Assembly: GCA_031372985.1 (NCBI GenBank)
Contig: JANMMF010000069.1
Coordinates: 1 to 53,108 of the forward strand
Source: Gemmatimonadota bacterium
GTDB taxonomy: Bacteria > Gemmatimonadota > Gemmatimonadetes > Gemmatimonadales > Gemmatimonadaceae
Length of the DNA: 53,108 nucleotides
Direction: 5' to 3'
This document shows, in pieces, positions 35,339 through 48,033 of the stretch; positions within the stretch are counted from its first letter, which is position 1, and each line of letters begins with the position of its first letter. The notes beneath the pieces are model-generated. The model worked only from the letters and a program-made list of their open reading frames with translations. It did no database searches and was not told where the DNA came from. The translations under genes were made by a program, and so were the position numbers.

Positions 35339-36013
35339 GTGCCGCTCAGGATCAACGTCGTCACGATCTTTCCGGATTTTTTTCGTGGACCTCTCGGGCT
35401 GAGCATCCCGTCGCGCGCGGCGGCGGCCGGCAGCGTTCAGTACAACCTCGTCGACCTGCGGGATTTCACCCACGACAAGCACCGCACCGTCGACGACGCT
35501 CCGTACGGAGGTGGCGCCGGGATGGTGATGAAGCCGCAGCCATTCTTCGAGGCGGTGGAATCGTTGAACACGAAGCCGCCGATCGTTCTGTTGTCTCCGC
35601 GCGGCCGCGTGTTCTCCCACGCCGACGCCGAGCGGTTTGCAGCGGGTGAGGAGCTAACGCTCTTGTGTGGCCATTACAAGGACATCGACCAGCGGGTCGC
35701 CGATCATCTCGCTACGGAGGAGATCTCTCTCGGCGATTTCGTGCTGAGCGGTGGCGAAGCAGCTGCGCTGGCGATCATCGATGCGACGGTGAGACTGCTC
35801 CCCGGCGCGATGTCAGATCTCGACAGCGCGCGCGGTGATTCATTCTTCGGTCGAGAATTGAGCGCGCCGAGCTATACGAGACCGCCGGAATTTCGCGGAC
35901 ACGCCGTACCGGAGGTACTGCTATCCGGTGACCATGCCAGGATCGCCAAGTGGCGCGACGAGGAAGGCGCGCGGTTGTCCAGGGTGCGAAAGGAGAGGGC
36001 TGACGGTCAGTAG
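35339..36013 (+). CDS. trmD: tRNA (guanine-N1)-methyltransferase TrmD
   Basis: VDDAPYGGGAGMVM, SLGDFVLSGGE, YTRP and VPEVLLSGDH. Confidence 0.98.
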   Translation: MPLRINVVTIFPDFFRGPLGLSIPSRAAAAGSVQYNLVDLRDFTHDKHRTVDDAPYGGGAGMVMKPQPFFEAVESLNTKPPIVLLSPRGRVFSHADAERFAAGEELTLLCGHYKDIDQRVADHLATEEISLGDFVLSGGEAAALAIIDATVRLLPGAMSDLDSARGDSFFGRELSAPSYTRPPEFRGHAVPEVLLSGDHARIAKWRDEEGARLSRVRKERADGQ

Positions 36014-38634
36014 AGCGCGCGCAGGCCGAGCGTGACCGTCCGTCCGGTGTTCACGTGCAAGTTATCCCGCCCGGCATTCAGCACATTGGTGAGGTTGTCA
36101 CCCCGGACGAAGATCTCGGATGACGCCCACAGCTTTTGCCGGGCACTGGCGCGGATCTGGGTGAATCCGGGATATCGGATCCAGTAGGAGCGCGGTGGCC
36201 CGCGGTTGGGATCCTTCGTCAGCACCGCGGTGTAGAGCGCGATCCAGTCGTAGTTGATCCAGTCGCCGACGCTCCACATGCTGAACGACAAGGATCTGCG
36301 GGGGCCGCCGACGGTCGCAGTGGCCGATGCACTCCAGTCTGGCACTTCGAGCATTCGGTCACCGACACGCAATGTTCCGGTGTAACGGGGCGCGATGGAA
36401 CGCACCAGGCTCTCTGTCCGAGCGTAGTTGGCCGCGAAACCAACCAAGCCGATGTCGGCGTTGGCCTCTGCCTCCCAGCCTGTGTTCCTGATCGTGCCGA
36501 TATTCTGCTGCTGCACGACTCTCGGGCGCGACCTCTCGTCGACGAGCACCTGCTGGATCAAACCTTCGGCATGCTGATCGTAATAGGTGATCTTGAGCGA
36601 TGCCCACTTGTCGAAGTAACCATCGAGCCCAAGCTCCGCCCCCGACTGAGACTCCGGTGCCAGCAGCGGATTTGCTCGCTGCGTCAGCTCGGTCAGCTGC
36701 ACCAGCCGGTCGGCGTCCATGGCAGGTGGACGGATACCCTTCCCATACGACGCGCGCGTCTTAAGAGTGAACTTGCCGATATCGCCGATGACCACTGCCC
36801 CCAGCTGCGGGAGGCGAGCGCCGCCGTACGCATTACCGAACGACGTATTCCATTCTCCGCGCAAGCCGCCGGTCAGGAAGACAACCTGACCGAGGGACAC
36901 CGTCGCCTGAGTGAAAAGACCGTGACTCGACTCGGATTCGACGCCGCCGGGCGAGAGCAATCTTCCTTCACTATAGACGGCGTCACTGGCGTGCCTTAGA
37001 TGAGAGGCGTCGAGCCCAAAGGCCAGCGATGTCCCAATGATGCCAGCCGACCCCGGTGACAGGTCAGTCGCGAGCCTCAGCGACTTGCGCTCAAACGCGC
37101 CCCTGGCCGCGACGAGAACCGAGTCGGCCGGACTGATGAATGGCACCGGAGTTCCGACTCCTTCGAGGGAAAAGCGGTCGTAGCCGGCAGTCGCGAGGAG
37201 CTTCAGGTGCGAAGACGGCGCGAAGCGTATGGTTCCTCCGGCTGTCCCATGGTGGGCGGCCCGTACCGGATTATCCACCGCGTGTAGCACCGGGACTCCG
37301 AGCTGTACGAGTATCGGATTGGTCGCCGCACCGCCGTCCACATTGTTTTGGTGCAGCTCAATGTCCGCGCTTGCCTTGCTGGTCCCAGCGTGCACCCTTC
37401 CGAAAGCGGAGCTCTGGCTCGCCGAACCGCCCTGCACGTACGCGCCGGTTGTTTGCCTTTTTCCTCCCGCGAGGAAGGACGCACTGGCGTTCGCTCCGCC
37501 GACCGAGCCACTCACCTCGCGCGTAGGAGCGGAGCCGGCCACGAAGCGACTGCGCATTCTTCCCTCGGCAGCAGAAAGGGTGAAGCGCGGGCGTCCGGTC
37601 ATCGCACCGCGGCCGTCCTTGGTCACGATCTGGATTACACCGCTGCTTGCATCAGAGCCGTGAAGAGCCGCACCCTGTGGACCACGAATTACCTCAATGC
37701 GCTCGATCATCGAGGGATCGAGCATTGATCCGAGAAACGGAGCGGCGACTTCGATCCCGTCGATGTATGTCTTGAAATAATTGATGGAGAACGAAGCCGC
37801 GCCGCGAACGCTTCCGAGGTGGCTGATGAGAGAGGACGGACCATCGTCCCAACCCACGACCCCGGGAATCAGTCCTCGAAAGATGTCATCGAGGGACCCC
37901 AGCTCGAGATTCCGCAACTTCGCGCCGCTAAGTACCGTCACCGCGCTCGCGAGCGACTGCTCGGCGGAGCCGCCGAGCGTTCCCATTACGACGATGCGAT
38001 CGAGAGGGAGCGGTGCGGGCTCCAGAGCTATGCGGAGCCGGCTCGCGAGCGCGGAATCTTCGGGCGGAGCTACCGCGCGGGCTATGTAGCCGATTTTGCG
38101 GACGAGCACGACACCCGCACCCGCAGGAAGTCGGAGTCCGGAGAAGAGTCCAGCGTAGTTAGTGACGCGCGCGACCCTTCCATCCACAAGTAGTGAAGCG
38201 CCGTCGAGCGGCGCACCGCTGTTGGCGTCCAGGACCACACCGGAGAGGGGCAGCGAGGCCACGCTTCCGGTCGGCGCCAGAACAATCAGGTCGTCGGTGA
38301 TAAACCTCGCTTCGAGTTTCGAGCCTCCGAGTATCTCGGCCAGGGCGGCGCCGGCGGTGATCGAGCGCTGATGCAGTGACACGCGGCGCTCGCCGAGGAG
38401 CTCGCGGCTGTAGGAGATGCGGGCACTCGCGTCCCGGGCGATGGCGGACACCGCATCGGAAAGCGCGGTGTCCGTCAGGTCTACCCTGATCACGCGTTCC
38501 AACGGATTGCCCCCCGGGGAGGCGGCGAAGCTCTTGAAGAGCGCCGTGGCCGCCTGGGCATCGAGCCGAAATGGTGTGGCGAGCGAAGCGATGGAAAGAA
38601 TCGTCGCAACACCGGCTCTCAGATTCATTCTCAC
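36007..38634 (-). CDS. TonB-dependent outer-membrane transducer (N-terminal STN-like domain, CarboxypepD-like domain, plug, barrel)
   Basis: Signal peptide; STN-like region ...AGAALAEILGGSKL; LSGVVLDANSGAPL; plug YIDG...IERIEVIRGPQGAALHG...GVIQIVTK; C-terminal LRALY. Confidence 0.9.
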   Translation of the reverse strand: MRMNLRAGVATILSIASLATPFRLDAQAATALFKSFAASPGGNPLERVIRVDLTDTALSDAVSAIARDASARISYSRELLGERRVSLHQRSITAGAALAEILGGSKLEARFITDDLIVLAPTGSVASLPLSGVVLDANSGAPLDGASLLVDGRVARVTNYAGLFSGLRLPAGAGVVLVRKIGYIARAVAPPEDSALASRLRIALEPAPLPLDRIVVMGTLGGSAEQSLASAVTVLSGAKLRNLELGSLDDIFRGLIPGVVGWDDGPSSLISHLGSVRGAASFSINYFKTYIDGIEVAAPFLGSMLDPSMIERIEVIRGPQGAALHGSDASSGVIQIVTKDGRGAMTGRPRFTLSAAEGRMRSRFVAGSAPTREVSGSVGGANASASFLAGGKRQTTGAYVQGGSASQSSAFGRVHAGTSKASADIELHQNNVDGGAATNPILVQLGVPVLHAVDNPVRAAHHGTAGGTIRFAPSSHLKLLATAGYDRFSLEGVGTPVPFISPADSVLVAARGAFERKSLRLATDLSPGSAGIIGTSLAFGLDASHLRHASDAVYSEGRLLSPGGVESESSHGLFTQATVSLGQVVFLTGGLRGEWNTSFGNAYGGARLPQLGAVVIGDIGKFTLKTRASYGKGIRPPAMDADRLVQLTELTQRANPLLAPESQSGAELGLDGYFDKWASLKITYYDQHAEGLIQQVLVDERSRPRVVQQQNIGTIRNTGWEAEANADIGLVGFAANYARTESLVRSIAPRYTGTLRVGDRMLEVPDWSASATATVGGPRRSLSFSMWSVGDWINYDWIALYTAVLTKDPNRGPPRSYWIRYPGFTQIRASARQKLWASSEIFVRGDNLTNVLNAGRDNLHVNTGRTVTLGLRALY

Positions 38635-39692
38635 CGAGGCCCCGGGCTGAACGTCAGGTGACGACCGTCGAGCCGGTACACGATTCCCAGCGTCTGTGTG
38701 ATTACCTGAACGACTGCCTCCGCGGGCTCACCAGCGAACCGCGCGCTGAGCGTTCGCGCTGCGAGAGTAGGGTCGGTCATGGTGATGTCGAGTCCGTACC
38801 ACCGGTGAAGCTCCAGGATCACTTCCGCAAGCGTCGCGTCGCGGAACACGATCTCTCCACGCGTCCACGCCAGCGCGTCCGCCGTCTGGCCGCTGGCAAG
38901 GAGTCGTGGCGCACCGGATCCCTCCACGGTAGCAGCGGATCCTGCTGCCAACTGCAACGGGAGCGAAGACTTCGCCAGCGCACTTCGAAGCGACACGACG
39001 CCCTCGACGACGGAAACCTCGGACCGCGCGGTACCCGGTATCGAGCGGACATTGAAAGCGGTTCCGATGTCTTCGACCAGAGCCGTAGCGGTCTGCACCG
39101 TAAGGCGACGACGCGGGTCGTGCGCGACGGTGAAATACCCCTCTCCGTTCAGGCGCAGCCTGCGCTGCCCGTCGTTTGAGCGTCGTCCTACTTCAAGTGA
39201 GGTTGACGGGGCGAGCATCACGGTGATTCCGTCGTCCAGCCTGATCGTCCTCCGCTCGCCGACCGCTGTAGCAACGGTTTGCAAGTCGTTCGCTCCGGTC
39301 GAAGGAGAGAAGGGGGAGTGCCAGGTGCCGGTGGCCAAAAGGACGATGATGCTGGCGGCGGCCAGAGCAGGGAGGGCCCAGTACGCCGCTCGGGTTCTCG
39401 AACCAAACGCGGATTCCCGCCTTGTCCCAATCACGATGGGTTGGCGACCCGCGCCTTCGATGACGCGGAGCGGACGCTGGTCCATCGCCGCGCTCAGCCT
39501 TGACCACGCCGCCTCCACGTCGACGCTGACAGCGGGATTTTCAGACGACTGGAGAGTTGACGCCAGCGAGGACAAGAGCGCTGAAGCATCCGGATTCCCG
39601 GACATCCAGGCCTCGAATTCGACCTTTTCCCGGGGCGAGCATTCGCCGGCCAGGTACTTTGCCGCGCGAGTCCAATCGATCTGATCGGTCAT
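38631..39692 (-). CDS. fecR: FecR-family anti-sigma / transmembrane sensor
   Basis: N-terminal KYLAGECSPRE..FEAW, one TM, TAVGERRTIRLDDG, GEGYFTVAHD, IGTAFNV, AWTRGEIVF. Confidence 0.92.
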   Translation of the reverse strand: MTDQIDWTRAAKYLAGECSPREKVEFEAWMSGNPDASALLSSLASTLQSSENPAVSVDVEAAWSRLSAAMDQRPLRVIEGAGRQPIVIGTRRESAFGSRTRAAYWALPALAAASIIVLLATGTWHSPFSPSTGANDLQTVATAVGERRTIRLDDGITVMLAPSTSLEVGRRSNDGQRRLRLNGEGYFTVAHDPRRRLTVQTATALVEDIGTAFNVRSIPGTARSEVSVVEGVVSLRSALAKSSLPLQLAAGSAATVEGSGAPRLLASGQTADALAWTRGEIVFRDATLAEVILELHRWYGLDITMTDPTLAARTLSARFAGEPAEAVVQVITQTLGIVYRLDGRHLTFSPGPR

Positions 39693-39707
39693 GGTCTTGG
39701 GGTTGTT

Positions 39708-39745
39708 TGCTTATATGACACCTTAACCCGGGAACCCCCTGACAC
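39708..39745 (-). promoter_or_regulatory. Putative ECF-sigma promoter of fecR-TBDR
   Basis: GTGTCAGGG-N15-GTGTCAT-ATAAGCA. The same motif occurs at 40483-40520. Confidence 0.7.
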
Positions 39746-39898
39746 CCAGGAGAAAGCTTTTTGTCTGGCGGGAACCCTCTAATTGGACGCTTGAGGCGGG
39801 GCCTGGTTGCGCGTTCTCCGTGAACTTCGTCGGACATTGTACGACAGAGACGAAACCGACCCGCCGACCGCTTTTCTACCAACCCCCAGTAATCGCAA

Positions 39899-40417
39899 GT
39901 GACAAGTCCTTCTGAGGCCGCCGAACGCGCTGAATTTGAGAGGATTTTCCGGTCGAATTACCCGGCCCTGGTGGGCTTTGGCGCGCGCTTTACCGGCTCC
40001 GTCGCCACCTCCGAGGAAGTCGTACAGGAGGTCTTCCTTGCTCTGTGGAGGCAACGGGAGACAATGCCGCCCGCGGAAAAGGTTCGCCCGTATCTGTACC
40101 GAGCCGTGCACAATCGCGCACTCAATGTGGTGAGGCACGAGAGGGTCGTTCACGCTCGCGAAGCGCAGATGGCAGAGCCGTCATTCGCGCCCCCGTCGGA
40201 CGAGACGCTCCTGATCGCGGAAACGGCGAGACTCGTTCGCGCTGCGGTGGATAGACTGCCAGAGAGGTGCCGCCTCATCTTCACGCTGAGTCGCGAGCAG
40301 AAGTTGACTTACGCGGAGATCGCCCAGGTCGCCGGAGTAAGCATCAAAACCGTCGAAACCCAGATGGGACGGGCGCTCCGCTCTCTTCGAGCTTCATTGG
40401 CGGACCTCAATAGGTAG
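39899..40417 (+). CDS. ECF RNA polymerase sigma-70 factor (FecI-like)
   Basis: EEVVQEVFLALW, YLYRAVHNRALN and LPERCRLIF...TYAEIA...SIKTVETQMGRAL. Divergent from fecR. Confidence 0.95.
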   Translation: MTSPSEAAERAEFERIFRSNYPALVGFGARFTGSVATSEEVVQEVFLALWRQRETMPPAEKVRPYLYRAVHNRALNVVRHERVVHAREAQMAEPSFAPPSDETLLIAETARLVRAAVDRLPERCRLIFTLSREQKLTYAEIAQVAGVSIKTVETQMGRALRSLRASLADLNR

Positions 40418-40482
40418 CCCCTCCGCCTTCGAGCCTCGACTCCGAGGCTGGACCGGAGACTTGCGGTCCCAAATATCCTCCT

Positions 40483-40520
40483 GTGTCAGGGTCCCGACCC
40501 TCCAGCGTGTCTTGAGAGCA
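40483..40520 (+). promoter_or_regulatory. Putative ECF-sigma promoter of the Cys-repeat lipoprotein
   Basis: GTGTCAGGG-N15-GTGTCTT-GAGAGCA, with the same spacing as the fecR copy. Confidence 0.7.
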
Positions 40521-40576
40521 TGACACGCGTTGGCGACAACCCGCCGGCGCACGATTGGCACCCTAACGGAGGCACC

Positions 40577-41629
40577 ATGATTTCCCTTATCAGACAGATG
40601 TCGTTCCGGCACCTCACGACGATAGCGGCTCTCAGCATCGGGCTCGGGGCGTGCGCCACTGACTCTCCGACATCACCAAACGCGTCATCTTTGGCGCCCG
40701 CCGTCCCGGTGAGCGCCGCAACTACCGCGGCCATTTCCTCGGACATCGCAAGGGCGGCTGGCAATTCGATAGCCAGCGACATTCAAAACCTGACTGCGAA
40801 TGAGATTGCTGCTGTCGCGTCCGGCTTCACCGTTATCACGCCGCGCTTCGACGGCACGACCGGCGCGACCGGCGACACGGCCCGAGCCACCCCGAATTGC
40901 GTGGAGAGCTCTGAAAAGGGCGTCTACTTCTGCACCAAGGAGCCTGCCAGCAGCGAGCACGCAAGCTGCAAGTATTCAGAGGAGAGAAAGCTCTTCATCT
41001 GCACCAGACAGGCGCCTCCAGCTGGAGATCACCCCGGCGACCAGCCAGGTGGCTCGGAAACGTGCACGTTCTCGAGCGTCACTCAGCTCTACACCTGCAC
41101 AAAGTCGTCGCAGGAATCCGTCGTTCGTTCCTATGGCTTCTTCGACGCGGACGGCAAGCCGATGGCGAGCTTCGTCAAGGGCGTTACCGCTTCGATTCAT
41201 TATCTGGTGAAGATCGACGGCTCCATCGCGATCGACTCGACCTTCACGGCCGTCAAGCACTCGCTTCGCGACCAGACTGTGAGCGGTTTACTGGGCAACA
41301 CCCGGATCTGGAACGGCTTCGGCAGCAGCGCTGATACCAATACGCACCGGGGACCGCTGTCCACGAGAACGTACGCCGGCCTAGCGGTCGATACGCTCAA
41401 AGCGGTGACCTTTGCGGCCGAGAGATCAAGCCAACCATATCCGCTCTCGGGCGTATCGGTGAGGGTGGTGAACTATACCGTGGTATCCACCGGCAGGCAG
41501 ACCGAGACCACGACGGTGAGCAAGCGGGTCGTGGTTACGTTCAACGGGACCGCCGATGTGCCGATCACGCTCGGAGACTACAGCTGCACACTTCACCTGG
41601 ACACGAAGAAAGTCGATGGGTGTGAGTAG
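40577..41629 (+). CDS. Hypothetical lipoprotein with three C-x10-C-T repeats and a beta-rich C-terminal domain
   Basis: SD GGAGG before the ATG at 40577. Lipobox GLGAC. Repeats NCVESSEKGVYFCTK / SCKYSEERKLFICTR / TCTFSSVTQLYTCTK. Confidence 0.85.
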   Translation: MISLIRQMSFRHLTTIAALSIGLGACATDSPTSPNASSLAPAVPVSAATTAAISSDIARAAGNSIASDIQNLTANEIAAVASGFTVITPRFDGTTGATGDTARATPNCVESSEKGVYFCTKEPASSEHASCKYSEERKLFICTRQAPPAGDHPGDQPGGSETCTFSSVTQLYTCTKSSQESVVRSYGFFDADGKPMASFVKGVTASIHYLVKIDGSIAIDSTFTAVKHSLRDQTVSGLLGNTRIWNGFGSSADTNTHRGPLSTRTYAGLAVDTLKAVTFAAERSSQPYPLSGVSVRVVNYTVVSTGRQTETTTVSKRVVVTFNGTADVPITLGDYSCTLHLDTKKVDGCE

Positions 41630-41660
41630 CGATTTCCTGGAACTTCGATCACGTGACATC

Positions 41661-41698
41661 GAGGGGCGCGGCTAGGAAGCCGCGCCCCTTTTGTTTTT
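41661..41698 (+). terminator. Rho-independent terminator after the lipoprotein gene
   Basis: AGGGGCGCGGCT-agga-AGCCGCGCCCCT followed by TTTGTTTTT. Confidence 0.9.
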
Positions 41699-41828
41699 GG
41701 GCCGACTGATGCCGAAAGACGCAGCGGCGAGCTAGCATTGGAATCTGCCGACCATTACTTTTAGGGGCTTCCCACGAACCTCCTAAACACGTCTTTACCA
41801 GGCTGTTAACTCCAGCCCCGAGCGTCAT

Positions 41829-42224
41829 ATGCATCCCTTCATCGAAACCCAGAAAGAGTGGCTCCGCGATAACATCCCCCCGTTCCGCGCCGGCGACACA
41901 CTCCGTGTGAACGTCCGCGTCCGCGAGGGCGACAAGGAAAGACTCCAGGCGTTCGAAGGTGTCTGCATCGCCAAGCGTGGAAGCGGAGTGAGCGCGACGT
42001 TCACAGTCCGGAAGATCTCGAACGGAATCGGTGTCGAGCGCATCTTCCCGATTCACAGCCCGATGATCTCGGAGATTATCGTCGTTCGCCGTGGACGCGT
42101 CCGTCGCGCGAAGCTGTACTACCTGCGCCACCTCACCGGCAAGGCGACCCGCATCCGCGAGCGGAAGGCGAAAGTCACCATTCCCGGTAGCGACACGGTG
42201 GTCGAGGCCGGAACCGAGGCCTAG
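41829..42224 (+). CDS. rplS: 50S ribosomal protein L19
   Basis: [30 protein letters not shown] and [10 protein letters not shown]. Confidence 0.99.
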
Positions 42225-44655: not shown

Positions 44656-44827
44656 GGCCGTCCCAGAGGGAGCCAAGGCTCGCCGAAAGCTGCCCGAAGC
44701 CAGTTCAAACCATGGGCTGCCACCGACTGTCATATCTGCAGCTACCGGGAATCACCATTGGCGCGTATTCAAACCTTTGAGCCGCTCGAGCTATCCAATC
44801 ACGCAGCAAAGCCAGGACAACGATTCA

Positions 44828-45385
44828 ATGCCGGCGGCCTCCAACGCGGTACGCGTACCCATGGGTGATTCAACGGACGTGGCCCTGGCCGCGGGTGGGG
44901 ATCGTCAGGCCTTCGAGCGGCTTTACCGGACGCACGCCAACAGGGTGTACTCGCTATGCACGCGGATGTCCGGAAGCAGGACGAAGGGAGAGGAGCTGAC
45001 TCAGGATGTGTTCGTGAGAACATGGGAAAAGCTTCCGCAGTTCAGGGGAGACAGCGCGTTTTCCACCTGGCTGCACCGCTTGGCAGTGAACGTGGTGTTG
45101 AATGCGAGAAAGACCGAGGGTAAGCAGGCCTCGAGAACGGATGAAAGCGATGTGGGTGACGAGCGCTGGGATGTAGCAGGGCGCGCCCCCATGCACATAG
45201 AGAGGATGGACTTGCAAGAGGCGATAGCGAAGCTGCCGGCGGGCGCACGAAACGTTTTCGTGCTCCATGACGTTGAAGGTTTCAAGCACGAGGAGATCGC
45301 CGAACTGTGTGGGATCACCTCGGGCGGAAGTAAGGCGCAGCTGCATCGCGCGAGACTTCTTTTGAGAGAGGCACTGGAACGATGA
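44828..45385 (+). CDS. ECF RNA polymerase sigma factor (start 44828 or 44861)
   Basis: AFERLY, EELTQDVF, FSTWLHRLAVN and GFKHEEIA...SKAQLHRAR. Confidence 0.94.
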   Translation: MPAASNAVRVPMGDSTDVALAAGGDRQAFERLYRTHANRVYSLCTRMSGSRTKGEELTQDVFVRTWEKLPQFRGDSAFSTWLHRLAVNVVLNARKTEGKQASRTDESDVGDERWDVAGRAPMHIERMDLQEAIAKLPAGARNVFVLHDVEGFKHEEIAELCGITSGGSKAQLHRARLLLREALER

Positions 45386-46221
45386 CGAACTCCGACATGA
45401 CCTGCGAAGCATTCGACGCCGCGCTCCCTGATTATCTCGAGGGAACGCTCGACGACTCGGTGCGCGCTTCGGTCGAAATGCATTTGAGAGAGTGCGTCCG
45501 TTGCGCCGGCCTGGTGAGAGATCTCGAGAACATTCGGCGGGATGCGTCGGCACTTCCCGACCTCGTTCCGGCGCGCGACTTGTGGGAAGGCATCGAAGCG
45601 CGGATTGCGGCACCCGTGATTCCGTTGGCTGCTCGTCCCGAGCGCCGGACAACCTTTGCCGCGGCCTGGATGGGCGTCGCCGCGGCCGCGTTGATAGTGA
45701 GCACCGCGGGAATCACCTACACACTTACGCAGCGCTCACTCGCGCTCGGCCAGCGCGGGGCTGTTGCGCAGGGAGAGCCGACACCCGGTCAGACTGGTGC
45801 CCGGATCGATGGTGGCGCCGGCGGGCAGGGGTCGCCAAATGCGATTGCCACTGCGCCGAACCAGATCGAGGGCAATTCGACCAACGTCTCGCAGGTAAGT
45901 GAAGCTTCCGCCCAGCGCCGCGGAACCGCCGCGAGCCTGGCCAGCCAGTCTCAGAATCCTTCGGGGCAGCCAGAAGCCGTCTATGGAAAAGAGATCGCGG
46001 CCCTTCAACAGATCGTTAGCCAACGGAAGACCCAGCTCGATTCGTCGACCGTCGTGATCATCGAAAAGAACCTGCGAATAATCGATGCTGCCATCGAGCA
46101 GAGCAGGGCAGCGCTGGCCAAGGATCCGGCGAGCCTTCTGCTCAGCGAGCAGCTGACACACGCGCTCGACAAGAAGGTCGAGCTCCTACGTACGGCGGCA
46201 CTGCTGCCGGCCAGCACATAA
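45382..46221 (+). CDS. Zinc-finger (zf-HC2/ZAS) membrane anti-sigma factor
   Basis: HLRECVRC (HxxxCxxC), one TM, helical C-terminal domain. ATGA-coupled to the sigma gene. Confidence 0.9.
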   Translation: MTNSDMTCEAFDAALPDYLEGTLDDSVRASVEMHLRECVRCAGLVRDLENIRRDASALPDLVPARDLWEGIEARIAAPVIPLAARPERRTTFAAAWMGVAAAALIVSTAGITYTLTQRSLALGQRGAVAQGEPTPGQTGARIDGGAGGQGSPNAIATAPNQIEGNSTNVSQVSEASAQRRGTAASLASQSQNPSGQPEAVYGKEIAALQQIVSQRKTQLDSSTVVIIEKNLRIIDAAIEQSRAALAKDPASLLLSEQLTHALDKKVELLRTAALLPAST

Positions 46222-47192
46222 TGAGAAACGAAATGATGCTCCGACTGATCGTCGCCGCAGCGGTAGTGGCGGCCCTTCCGCCTTCCGCAGGGGCGCAGGA
46301 CTACCAAGGCGTTCAGATACGAGGCCTCACTCGGATAGACACCACGGTGAGACTGGATCGTGGGGGTGCCGTAGATCTCTCACTTATTTCCGGCAGGATC
46401 CGGGTAACCGGATGGGACCGCCCAGAGGTAAAGGTCTCGGCGTCGATCGACAATGGACGGTTGCGCTTCGACGCAAACTCGTCGAGGGTCAGCCTGAGGG
46501 TGGACGACTCCGACAACGAAGGCCGGAGGAGGAACCGACACGACAACGTTGGTGACGCTCGCTACGAGGTTTCGGTTCCGCGCGGCTCGCGACTGATTCT
46601 GGAGGCGGTCTCCGGGGACGTCACTGCCAGCGGCTCGCAGGGGGAGATCGAGGCGACGAGCGTGAGCGGCGACGTCGACGTGACTAACGGAGTGCGAGAC
46701 GTAATTGTCGAATCCGTGTCGGGATCCGTCCACGCGGCGCAGATCAATGGTGATCTTACAGCGCAGAGCGTCAGTGGCGATGTCCGGGTAGAAACCGTGT
46801 CCGGCGCTGTCGAGGCGAGCACGGTCAGCGGCAACATCCGCCTCATCGGCGTCCAATCGAAAGACGTGCGGAGCGAGACCGTCAGCGGAAACATCGTCTA
46901 CTCGGGCAGCATCGATGCGGGTGGGCGGTACAACTTCGAGTCCCACTCGGGAACCGTGCGGCTCAACATCCCGCGTGGAGCGGGGGCCACTTTCAGCGTG
47001 GAGACGTTCAGCGGGGATATCAACGCGGATTTCCCCGTCACCGTTCCGCCCAGCTCTGGTAGAGGAAGAAGGAACGGCCGGATGGAGTTTACGATCGGCG
47101 ACGGAAGAGCGAGGGTCACCGCCCAGACCTTCAGCGGCAGCATTGTGATCAACAGCGGTTCAGACTCAACCACCCGGAGAGATGATGAATAG
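46221..47192 (+). CDS. Secreted DUF4097-type beta-strand-repeat protein
   Basis: Signal peptide and many (S/T)VSGD(V/I) repeats. Confidence 0.88.
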   Translation: MRNEMMLRLIVAAAVVAALPPSAGAQDYQGVQIRGLTRIDTTVRLDRGGAVDLSLISGRIRVTGWDRPEVKVSASIDNGRLRFDANSSRVSLRVDDSDNEGRRRNRHDNVGDARYEVSVPRGSRLILEAVSGDVTASGSQGEIEATSVSGDVDVTNGVRDVIVESVSGSVHAAQINGDLTAQSVSGDVRVETVSGAVEASTVSGNIRLIGVQSKDVRSETVSGNIVYSGSIDAGGRYNFESHSGTVRLNIPRGAGATFSVETFSGDINADFPVTVPPSSGRGRRNGRMEFTIGDGRARVTAQTFSGSIVINSGSDSTTRRDDE

Positions 47193-48033
47193 AACGAAGA
47201 TTGTGGCGGCTCTCGCCCTCATGCTCGCCGCGCCGGCACTTGGCGCGCAGCAGGAATTCGGGCGCGACTCCGACACCTGGCGTTGGGATGGCCGCGTCGA
47301 TTCCGGTCGCTGGATGCAAGTGTTCAACGTGAACGGCTCGGTGGATTTTGCGCCCAGCCCCGACAACCAGGTCCACCTGGTCGCGGAGAAGCGCTCGAAC
47401 GGACGCGAGATGGACGACATTCACTTCGAAGTCGTGCAGGCCGGCGGCAACGTGACCATCTGCGCGATCTGGAACAACAGCGCGCGTTGCGAGGACGGTG
47501 GGACCGTATCCATGCGCCGCAACCAGAACAACGACACCCACTCCTCAGTGAAGTTCACGGTCAAGGTGCCGCGCAACATCAGGGTCGGTGCGCATTCGGT
47601 GAACGGCGGGGTGTCGGTCAGGGACGTCGGTACCGAGGTGCGGGCGAGCTCGGTCAACGGCGGTGTGAACGTTCGCAATACGAGCGGTCCGGTGCGCGCG
47701 ACGACCGTGAACGGCGGAGTCGACGTCAGCACGTCGGCGGGCCCGGTCACCGCCACGACGGTAAACGGCAACGTCGACGCTCGCATGGCATCGCTGCAGG
47801 GCGACGACGACATGAGCTTCAAGACCGTGAATGGATCGATTGCCATTTACGTTCCATCGGGCTTCGACGCAAACTTCCGCTTCGATACCGTAAGCGGCGG
47901 AATCGACAGCGATTTCCCGATGACTTTGACGGGCAAGTGGGGACCGCGCCACGCCTCCGGCAAGATCGGAAACGGCGGGCGGGACCTGAGGGCGAGCAAC
48001 GTCAACGGCAGCATCGAGTTGAGAAAGCAGTAG
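47182..48033 (+). CDS. Secreted DUF4097-type beta-strand-repeat protein
   Basis: Signal peptide (APALGA) and many (S/T)VNGGV repeats. Confidence 0.88.
   Translation: MMNRTKIVAALALMLAAPALGAQQEFGRDSDTWRWDGRVDSGRWMQVFNVNGSVDFAPSPDNQVHLVAEKRSNGREMDDIHFEVVQAGGNVTICAIWNNSARCEDGGTVSMRRNQNNDTHSSVKFTVKVPRNIRVGAHSVNGGVSVRDVGTEVRASSVNGGVNVRNTSGPVRATTVNGGVDVSTSAGPVTATTVNGNVDARMASLQGDDDMSFKTVNGSIAIYVPSGFDANFRFDTVSGGIDSDFPMTLTGKWGPRHASGKIGNGGRDLRASNVNGSIELRKQ

What the first reader, a model, noticed from the sequence alone, without database searches (positions are those of the whole stretch)
36007..41698. Self-contained cell-surface-signalling module (TBDR, FecR, ECF sigma, Cys-repeat lipoprotein) whose regulon is readable from the sequence
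Seen: fecR-TBDR (minus) and sigma (plus) are divergent, followed by an uncharacterised lipoprotein and a strong terminator. The same bipartite motif precedes both fecR and the lipoprotein gene. Known: FecI/FecR/FecA-type triads sense a ligand through an STN-bearing receptor and usually induce uptake genes or a SusD partner. No SusD, ABC permease or obvious catabolic gene lies in this block. Inference: the main output, or the sensed ligand, is the lipoprotein itself, for example a protein-sensing or protein-export circuit. This is the best candidate for an undescribed system in the window.
Basis: partly seen in the sequence, partly recalled or inferred. Interest (0 to 1): 0.8.

Follow-up and report, generated by a model that had tools for sequence, protein, structure and literature searches.

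The report
Surface-signalling cassette with swappable lipoprotein output
This is a four-gene cassette of Gemmatimonadota bacteria in which an outer-membrane receptor, an anti-sigma factor and a sigma factor likely relay an outside signal, possibly a peptide, to switch on the receptor operon and one unannotated lipoprotein that other lineages place under different, likely stress-type promoters, so it is a new wiring of a known signalling design.

Summary
Observation confirmed. TBDR (36007-38634) and fecR (38631-39692) are divergent from an ECF sigma (39899-40417), followed by a Pfam-less lipoprotein and a terminator. TGTCAGGG-N16-TGTC lies before fecR and before the lipoprotein (2 in the window, 0.01 expected). 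The cassette is inserted between trmD and rplS. The triad is conserved in Gemmatimonadaceae: FecR beside 80 of 80 receptor homologues, sigma beside 79. The motif precedes fecR in 58 of 62 divergent triads, and follows the sigma in 36 of 40 with a lipoprotein there against 3 of 22 without. But the output is exchangeable: two unrelated lipoprotein families fill the slot, and this family mostly lives away from triads, under a sigma54-type motif beside flotillin or the self-promoter motif of an ECF with a CpxP-like partner. Sister receptors sit beside S9 peptidases and lasso-peptide genes. Best reading: cell-surface signalling with Serratia Has-like logic, likely sensing a peptide and inducing an envelope-response lipoprotein. 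Nothing found supports the lipoprotein being the ligand or an export cargo. Ligand and lipoprotein function are inferred, not shown. New variant of a known kind.

The parts
36007..38634 (-). TonB-dependent receptor, 875 aa: signal peptide, STN signalling domain, CarboxypepD-like domain, TonB-box-like DRIVV, SusC/RagA-like plug, short barrel
38631..39692 (-). FecR-type anti-sigma factor, 353 aa, one hydrophobic segment (residues 102-120), FecR and FecR_C domains; overlaps the receptor start by 4 nt; only FecR found in this assembly
39717..39744 (-). Predicted promoter of the cassette's sigma for fecR-receptor (TGTCAGGG-N16-TGTC)
39786..39810 (-). Second conserved element GCAAC-N16-CGTC facing fecR; ECF-promoter-like; confined to the trmD-rplS-site clade; a lead only
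39899..40417 (+). ECF sigma factor, 172 aa, TIGR02985 (Bacteroidetes-type, FecI-like clade) above cut-off; no copy of its motif upstream
40484..40511 (+). Predicted promoter of the cassette's sigma for the lipoprotein gene
40577..41629 (+). Lipoprotein of an unnamed family (family A): lipobox LGAC with Cys at 40652, long helix, three Cys-bounded hairpin repeats, curved beta-sheet domain; longest ORF starts at 40520
41661..41698 (+). Intrinsic terminator
41732..41761 (+). Predicted sigma70-type promoter of rplS, conserved in congeners; it would let rplS survive the insertion
35339..36013 (+). trmD, left flank of the insertion (not part of the cassette)
41829..42224 (+). rplS, right flank of the insertion (not part of the cassette)

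Best explanation
The cassette encodes an STN-bearing TonB-dependent receptor, a FecR anti-sigma and an ECF sigma that likely form a cell-surface-signalling relay, sensing an outside ligand (most likely a peptide) and switching on two predicted promoters, one for fecR-receptor and one for a lipoprotein that likely acts as an envelope-response effector rather than as a dedicated receptor partner. Shown here: domains, gene order, motif placement, linkage, exchange of the output gene. Inferred from E. coli Fec and Serratia Has: ligand binding, TonB-driven release of the STN domain, FecR cleavage, sigma release, and reset by newly made FecR. Inferred from neighbourhoods only: a peptide ligand (about 0.35) and an envelope-protective role of the lipoprotein (about 0.45). 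The two-promoter regulon itself I put at about 0.85.
For: Triad: FecR in 80 of 80 and sigma in 79 of 80 receptor loci. Motif RGGG-N14-16-GTGT[CTA] before fecR in 58 of 62 divergent triads (opposite strand 6 of 62; colinear triads 1 of 17), after the sigma in 23 of 24 family-A, 13 of 16 family-B and 3 of 22 other loci; the stricter RGGG-N15,16-GTGTC gives 49 of 62, 20 of 24, 11 of 16, 2 of 22. Upstream of the sigma itself 1 of 62: the HasI pattern. Effector reading: of 47 family-A upstream regions, 18 carry TTTGGC-N7-[CT]TGC (sigma54 GG-N10-GC spacing, recalled consensus), 19 carry T[AT]AA?C-N16-18-CGTC, 3 the cassette motif, controls 0, 0, 1; in metagenomes 35, 10 and 6 of 60, no locus with two. 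TTAAC-N16,17-CGTC precedes 29 of 30 orthologues of a family-wide ECF (56 of 61 genomes) encoded with a zf-HC2 anti-sigma and a CpxP-like protein (E 2.7e-5, under cut-off). The sigma54-type clade follows a flotillin-like gene (31 of 60). The window's lipoprotein groups with that clade (support 99), not with 27 other triad-linked ones; one origin rejected, p-AU 0.0005. Peptide lead: of 16 loci of the sister receptor clade scanned, 9 carry S9 peptidases, 3 PD40/DPPIV propellers, 3 asparagine-synthase (lasso-cyclase-like) genes, 1 M16 peptidase; best solved matches of the plug are BT2264 and RagA.
Against: No expression, binding or genetic data. The motifs were found by eye and refined on these loci, and kin are not independent. 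The peptide clue comes from a sister clade that lacks the motif (1 of 17), and the PDB similarity covers the plug only; no peptidase or peptide gene is in this cassette. 'Envelope stress' rests on a sub-cut-off CpxP match and a weak flotillin match (E 6.7e-8). The sigma54-type clade often has a Plug/TonB_C gene and SusC/SusD just downstream (33 of 80 loci), which fits a receptor-associated role instead. Receptor clades match lipoprotein families on the tree, as a dedicated partnership would also give. L011 carries two motif types.
Confidence: 0.45

Rival explanations
1. Same signalling relay, but a nutrient-uptake unit: the lipoprotein is a surface lid or ligand-capture partner of the receptor that replaces SusD (as BtuG, XusB or HmuY do in Bacteroidota; those examples recalled, XusA-XusB also listed).
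For: Co-induced by the same motif; no SusD-like gene in 80 of 80 loci while the control finds SusD in the genome; two unrelated lipoprotein families fill the slot, each with its own receptor clade; the model has a concave sheet that could hold a ligand; sigma54-type relatives lie upstream of SusC/SusD.
Against: Many family members have no receptor of this kind within about 6 kb (0 of 20 with sigma or FecR, 1 with a SusC-like gene at the edge); 22 of 62 divergent triads have neither family in the slot; the window's copy comes from a different clade than its nearest receptor relative's lipoprotein.
Confidence: 0.3
2. One reading: the lipoprotein is itself the ligand (released, loaded and re-bound like HasA on HasR) or the cargo of a protein-export circuit.
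For: It is the only non-signalling gene under the motif here; the regulatory logic matches HasI/HasS/HasR/HasA; the Cys-repeat and Gly/Pro linker region varies between homologues as a specificity region might.
Against: It has a lipobox in nearly all full-length homologues, so it is predicted to be anchored; no secretion genes in the block; the family occurs without the receptor and the receptor without it; TonB-dependent receptors are known as importers (established knowledge).
Confidence: 0.12
3. An ordinary FecIRA-type iron-carrier uptake system, with the lipoprotein a passenger.
For: FecI-like sigma, FecR and STN receptor; most characterised systems of this design serve iron.
Against: Receptor far below the cut-offs of siderophore, haem and B12 receptor models, best match SusC/RagA; best Fur-box match 10 of 19 in the sigma-fecR spacer (consensus recalled, and Fur sites of this phylum are not known to me); no ABC or siderophore genes; the motif follows the sigma only where a lipoprotein does.
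Confidence: 0.1

Closest known systems
Serratia marcescens HasI/HasS/HasR/HasA (PMC9249621, section 22 read)
   Same: ECF sigma, FecR-like anti-sigma and signalling receptor; the sigma induces the anti-sigma and the receptor but not itself, and is needed for an extracytoplasmic protein output.
   Different: HasA is a secreted haem carrier that binds HasR; here the output is a lipoprotein of unrelated sequence with no shown binding, no haem or Fur link, a different motif, and it is exchangeable.
Bacteroidetes ECF240 (old ECF10) sigma-FecR-SusC-SusD loci (PMC7826278, passages and supplement part 24)
   Same: TIGR02985-type sigma, FecR with FecR_C, SusC-like plug with CarboxypepD domain; an inverted order (anti-sigma at -1, receptor at -2) is described for ECF240s1 and s22.
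   Different: No SusD in 80 of 80 loci; a conserved target motif, whereas ECF240 is described as lacking one; Gemmatimonadota host.
ECF239 (same supplement)
   Same: FecR plus CarboxypepD-fused receptor without a SusD.
   Different: ECF239 is described as colinear and probably autoregulated through (A|G)ACA/TAC; here divergent, not autoregulated, motif RGGG/GTGTC.
Isopeptidase-type lasso peptide clusters (astexin, sphingopyxin; PMC9266682 passages)
   Same: TonB-dependent receptor with a FecI/FecR pair; the sister receptor clade here lies beside S9 peptidases or lasso-type genes.
   Different: This cassette has no precursor, cyclase, leader peptidase or isopeptidase.
Pseudomonas aeruginosa PUMA3 VreA/VreR/VreI (PMC2729926, abstract)
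   Same: Cell-surface signalling with a non-iron output.
   Different: VreA lacks a barrel and the output is virulence and secretion genes.
Autotransporter translocator domains (fold only)
   Same: Helix lying inside a curved antiparallel sheet; VIA Z 12.9, rmsd 4.6, 207 aligned.
   Different: Lipobox, Thr/Ser-rich strands without membrane-type alternation, C-terminal Cys pair, identity 6-8%.

Membership tests
Cell-surface signalling (FecIRA type) | TonB-dependent receptor with plug, barrel and N-terminal STN signalling domain | tested here: met
   STN under cut-off in the window, hit in 12 of 12 homologues, 4 over cut-off
Cell-surface signalling (FecIRA type) | Single-pass FecR anti-sigma with FecR and FecR_C domains next to the receptor | tested here: met
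Cell-surface signalling (FecIRA type) | Linked ECF sigma of the FecI-like clade | tested here: met
   TIGR02985 151.5 bits over 126.4; 79 of 80 loci
Cell-surface signalling (FecIRA type) | Ligand-triggered signal transfer and FecR proteolysis | not testable with these tools
   needs experiments
Iron-carrier FecIRA systems | Fur control and iron-carrier uptake genes | tested here: inconclusive
   best Fur-like match 10 of 19 with a recalled consensus; no uptake genes in the block
ECF240 (SusC/SusD-linked) | SusD-type binding protein after the receptor | tested here: not met
   0 of 80 loci with five SusD-like queries; positive control in the own genome; flank after the receptor mostly 2.5 kb
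ECF240 or ECF239 | Assignment by the ECF group HMMs | not testable with these tools
   group models not held
ECF239 | Autoregulation of the sigma gene | tested here: not met
   cassette motif upstream of sigma in 1 of 62; the (A|G)ACA/TAC motif itself was not searched
Has-type system | Sigma induces anti-sigma and receptor but not itself | tested here: met
   by motif placement only
Has-type system | Induced protein is a HasA-like haemophore that binds the receptor | tested here: inconclusive
   no sequence match to any solved chain at E up to 1; no HasA chain among listed fold matches; binding untested
Isopeptidase-type lasso cluster | Precursor, cyclase, leader peptidase and isopeptidase genes at the locus | tested here: not met
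   the block between trmD and rplS holds four genes only
Autotransporter or other outer-membrane barrel (lipoprotein) | Amphipathic membrane strands and C-terminal aromatic beta-signal | tested here: not met
   long strands show weak polar/apolar alternation and the chain ends in a Cys pair; no Pfam barrel match in 80 members

The most novel reading that the evidence does not exclude
A TonB-dependent signalling receptor derived from peptide-reading ancestors is used as an early-warning sensor rather than as a feeding transporter: it detects a foreign or damage-derived peptide outside the cell and induces one protective lipoprotein. Its sigma-controlled slot works as a plug-in socket that was filled at least three times (family A twice, family B once), and family A (1,186 clusters at 50% identity, no Pfam, no solved relative) is a phylum-typical envelope effector wired to three different sigma factors.
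Probability: 0.2. Interest if true: 0.75.

Novelty: new variant of a known kind. Interest (0 to 1): 0.45.

Why it matters
It gives a conserved, readable target promoter for a FecI-like sigma group whose nearest described relatives are said to lack one, and a two-promoter circuit small enough to test with reporters. It also brings out a large unannotated lipoprotein family of Gemmatimonadetes with three alternative predicted promoter types. If the ligand is a peptide and the output protective, it would be cell-surface signalling used for threat sensing, and it would bear on the open question of what the receptor-FecI-FecR sets beside lasso-peptide clusters do.

Tried and rejected
Complex prediction of receptor (plug and barrel) with the lipoprotein gave no verdict (score 0.00); it is not used either way. 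Sequence and fold searches for a known relative of the lipoprotein: no Pfam family over noise in 80 members, no PDB sequence match, no Foldseek match at E 0.001, Atlas neighbours all 'hypothetical' Gemmatimonadota clusters; barrel matches read as shared geometry. Family A against family B: no profile similarity (probability 0.35); family B was not folded and its Atlas search did not complete. Family B not found in this 89.8% complete assembly (no positive control in that call). A wider regulon in this genome: the two cassette sites rank 1 and 3 in a matrix scan (one was in the training set); rank 2 (C313:169) was not followed. GCAAC-N16-CGTC as a general second promoter: rejected, 2 of 62 against 2.3 expected, chance level in the window. 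No RNA holder listed. The careful lipoprotein tree did not finish; the quick tree was used. Cross-matching the truncated hit lists gave only 9 linked pairs among 66 genomes in both; the fetched regions replaced that count. Earlier findings by sequence and by place: nothing.
Full report
Setting and observation. Named homologues are Gemmatimonadaceae or Gemmatimonadota. The window carries ffh, rpsP, rimM, trmD, then the four-gene block, then rplS and rnhB. The receptor (36007-38634, minus) has a weak STN, a CarboxypepD-like domain, a plug and a barrel; fecR (38631-39692, minus) has FecR and FecR_C and one hydrophobic segment; the sigma (39899-40417, plus) passes the TIGR02985 cut-off; the lipoprotein has no family match. 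The bipartite motif occurs exactly twice in the window, 24 nt before the fecR ATG and about 65 nt before the likely lipoprotein start at 40577. A 13-pair hairpin with a U-run closes the block. One contig of a run not marked as a possible source spans 35675-41813.

The block is an insertion. In 27 of 29 congeneric rplS loci trmD lies directly upstream (26 of 28 without the unpublished G510; one locus ends at its contig edge, one has other genes), and all show a conserved promoter-like element before rplS that the window retains (the call read the 30 best of 51 matches). The same cassette at the same site is seen in L031, in L099 from another genus and, by its rplS flank, in 5 of 6 metagenome loci of the window's own lipoprotein clade. 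FecR homologues occur in 80 of 109 congeneric genomes, nearly all only 30-40% identical (tally includes unpublished G522), so this copy is a distinct sub-lineage.

The triad and its motif are conserved. Receptor homologues were found in 158 of 301 family genomes (includes unpublished G134). I fetched 80 of the about 150 listed matches, chosen by rank and contig length and not at random. All 80 had FecR upstream and 79 a sigma; 62 were divergent like the window and 17 colinear. Family-A lipoproteins were in 29 of 80 (24 directly after the sigma on its strand, 3 reversed, 2 beyond the receptor). A second lipoprotein family, B, was in 16 of 80, two of them frameshifted, with no profile similarity to A. 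The pattern RGGG-N14-16-GTGT[CTA] lies before fecR in 58 of 62 divergent loci (opposite strand 6) and 1 of 17 colinear; after the sigma in 23 of 24 A, 13 of 16 B and 3 of 22 other loci. The stricter pattern gives 49 of 62, 20 of 24, 11 of 16 and 2 of 22. Both patterns were written after I had seen these loci, and related genomes are not independent. A matrix score of 10 or more upstream of the sigma itself occurs in 1 of 62. None of the 80 loci has a SusD-like gene, while the same queries find several in the own genome. That the motif is this sigma's promoter is an inference from placement and ECF-like spacing.

The lipoprotein. The family has matches in 172 of 301 family genomes (includes unpublished G252, G007, G034, G134, G298) and 70 of 201 phylum genomes, in 6 of 12 families sampled (includes G007), and 1,186 clusters at 50% identity. 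Cys-bounded hairpin repeats vary from one to five; the last one and a C-terminal Cys pair are conserved; disulfides are inferred. A model from 80 sequences (pLDDT 86, pTM 0.73) shows a long helix inside a curved antiparallel sheet. Its best fold matches are autotransporter barrels at Z 12-13 with rmsd about 4-4.6, but the strands lack membrane-type alternation, so I read it as a soluble, lipid-anchored curved sheet with no solved relative found.

The output is exchangeable. Among the 28 closest genome loci only L031 had this triad (many flanks were short; L053 had an unrelated ECF 3 kb upstream); among 20 more distant solitary loci none had sigma or FecR hits within about 6 kb. Upstream regions instead carry other motifs. 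Of 47 examined (five loci left out: two duplicates, one with a wrong lipobox call, two from unpublished genomes; seven more had no lipobox call), 18 have a sigma54-type spacing, 19 a TTAAC/CTAAAC-N16-18-CGTC element and 3 the cassette motif. In 60 of 80 metagenome loci with enough upstream sequence the numbers are 35, 10 and 6. The TTAAC element precedes 29 of 30 orthologues of a family-wide ECF, which in this genome is followed by a zf-HC2 anti-sigma and a CpxP-like gene; I infer an autoregulated envelope-stress sigma. The sigma54-type clade follows a flotillin-like gene (31 of 60) and often precedes a Plug/TonB_C gene and SusC/SusD (33 of 80); this genome has rpoN. On a quick tree of 80 sequences the window's protein sits with the sigma54-type clade (99), apart from 27 other triad-linked members (97). 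With 35 rows, one origin for cassette-linked members was rejected (p-AU 0.0005; run after seeing the tree, with long branches present, and two of the rows counted as linked by clade only). The direction of exchange is not established.

The receptor. Its plug is closest to BT2264 and RagA among solved chains; RagAB is an oligopeptide importer (10.1101/755678, search listing only). On a fast tree the homologues fall into family-A-linked, family-B-linked and colinear/S9-linked groups. Of 16 loci of the last group scanned (of 19), 9 have S9 prolyl oligopeptidases, 3 related propeller domains, 3 asparagine-synthase genes (one also scanned for, and carrying, Transglut_core3) and 1 an M16 peptidase. 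This recalls isopeptidase-type lasso clusters, which carry a TonB-dependent transporter and a sigma/anti-sigma pair (PMC9266682, passages). It makes a peptide the best guess for the ligand, but it is guilt by a sister clade.

Mechanism. Shown: parts, order, motif placement, linkage, exchange. Inferred from Fec and Has (PMC9249621, passages and section 22): ligand on the receptor, TonB-dependent displacement of the STN domain, FecR cleavage, sigma release, transcription of fecR-receptor and of the lipoprotein, shut-off by accumulated FecR. Inferred from promoters and neighbours of relatives: the lipoprotein is a general envelope-response effector. The main rival, a SusD-replacing lid for uptake, is not excluded and has real support (co-induction, receptor clades tracking lipoprotein families, SusC/SusD near the sigma54-type clade).

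Comparison and novelty. It works like cell-surface signalling and meets the anatomical tests. It fails the SusD test of ECF240 and the autoregulation test of ECF239 (PMC7826278, passages and supplement part 24; that supplement was cut when stored, and unseen parts may list this motif). PMC13472631 (passages) confirms sigma-fecR-susCD as the Bacteroidetes norm and gave no motif. PMC2729926 (abstract) is a precedent for a non-iron output. I found no description of this Gemmatimonadota cassette, motif or lipoprotein in eight searches of the open library (one search returned no paper with all four terms); subscription papers are not covered. Verdict: real, conserved, apparently undescribed wiring of a known design; new variant of a known kind; interest 0.45.

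Noticed in passing
G000 C25 (L189:1205-2905, minus) and L198-L227: A family-wide ECF with a zf-HC2 anti-sigma and a CpxP-like gene; TTAAC-N16,17-CGTC upstream in 29 of 30 orthologues. Twelve such sites in this genome, several before exported proteins and one before a second ECF/anti-sigma pair (L194).
   Followed up: partly
L089-L098, L101, L103, L104, L106, L114, L160: Second unannotated lipoprotein family (B, about 240-255 aa mature, conserved Cys) in the same sigma-controlled slot; no Pfam or NCBIfam match; not folded.
   Followed up: partly
L100, L110, L115 and L105, L109, L111, L116, L117, L121, L131, L149, L163: Sister receptor-FecR-sigma sets beside lasso-type genes (asparagine synthase, Transglut_core3) or S9 peptidases: possible lasso-peptide or orphan isopeptidase modules in Gemmatimonadaceae.
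   Followed up: partly
L125 (after the sigma), also L162, L165, L153: The slot or its vicinity holds a second ECF sigma; in L125 the cassette motif precedes it (score 21.8), which would make a sigma cascade.
   Followed up: no
window 39786-39810 (-) and about 39827-39840: GCAAC-N16-CGTC facing fecR and a neighbouring CCGACGA element are conserved in 6 of 6 loci of the trmD-site clade but not in other triads; unexplained.
   Followed up: partly
window 40506-40530: The GTGTC box is followed by a conserved inverted copy (ACACGC) in 7 of 7 clade loci; could be a hairpin or a repressor site.
   Followed up: no
window 44816-48033 (+): Another ECF sigma, zf-HC2 anti-sigma and two DUF4097 genes, an envelope-stress-like module 3 kb from the cassette.
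   Followed up: partly
L032-L052, L324-L385: Conserved block: NfeD-like-looking gene, flotillin-like gene, sigma54-type motif, family-A lipoprotein, CarboxypepD-Plug-TonB_C gene, SusC, SusD.
   Followed up: partly
L120, L136, L151, L145, L164: Family-A lipoprotein present but reversed after the sigma or placed beyond the receptor; their promoters were not located.
   Followed up: no
G000 C313:169 (+): Second-ranked match to the cassette motif in the genome (score 19.7), near a contig end; gene context not examined.
   Followed up: no
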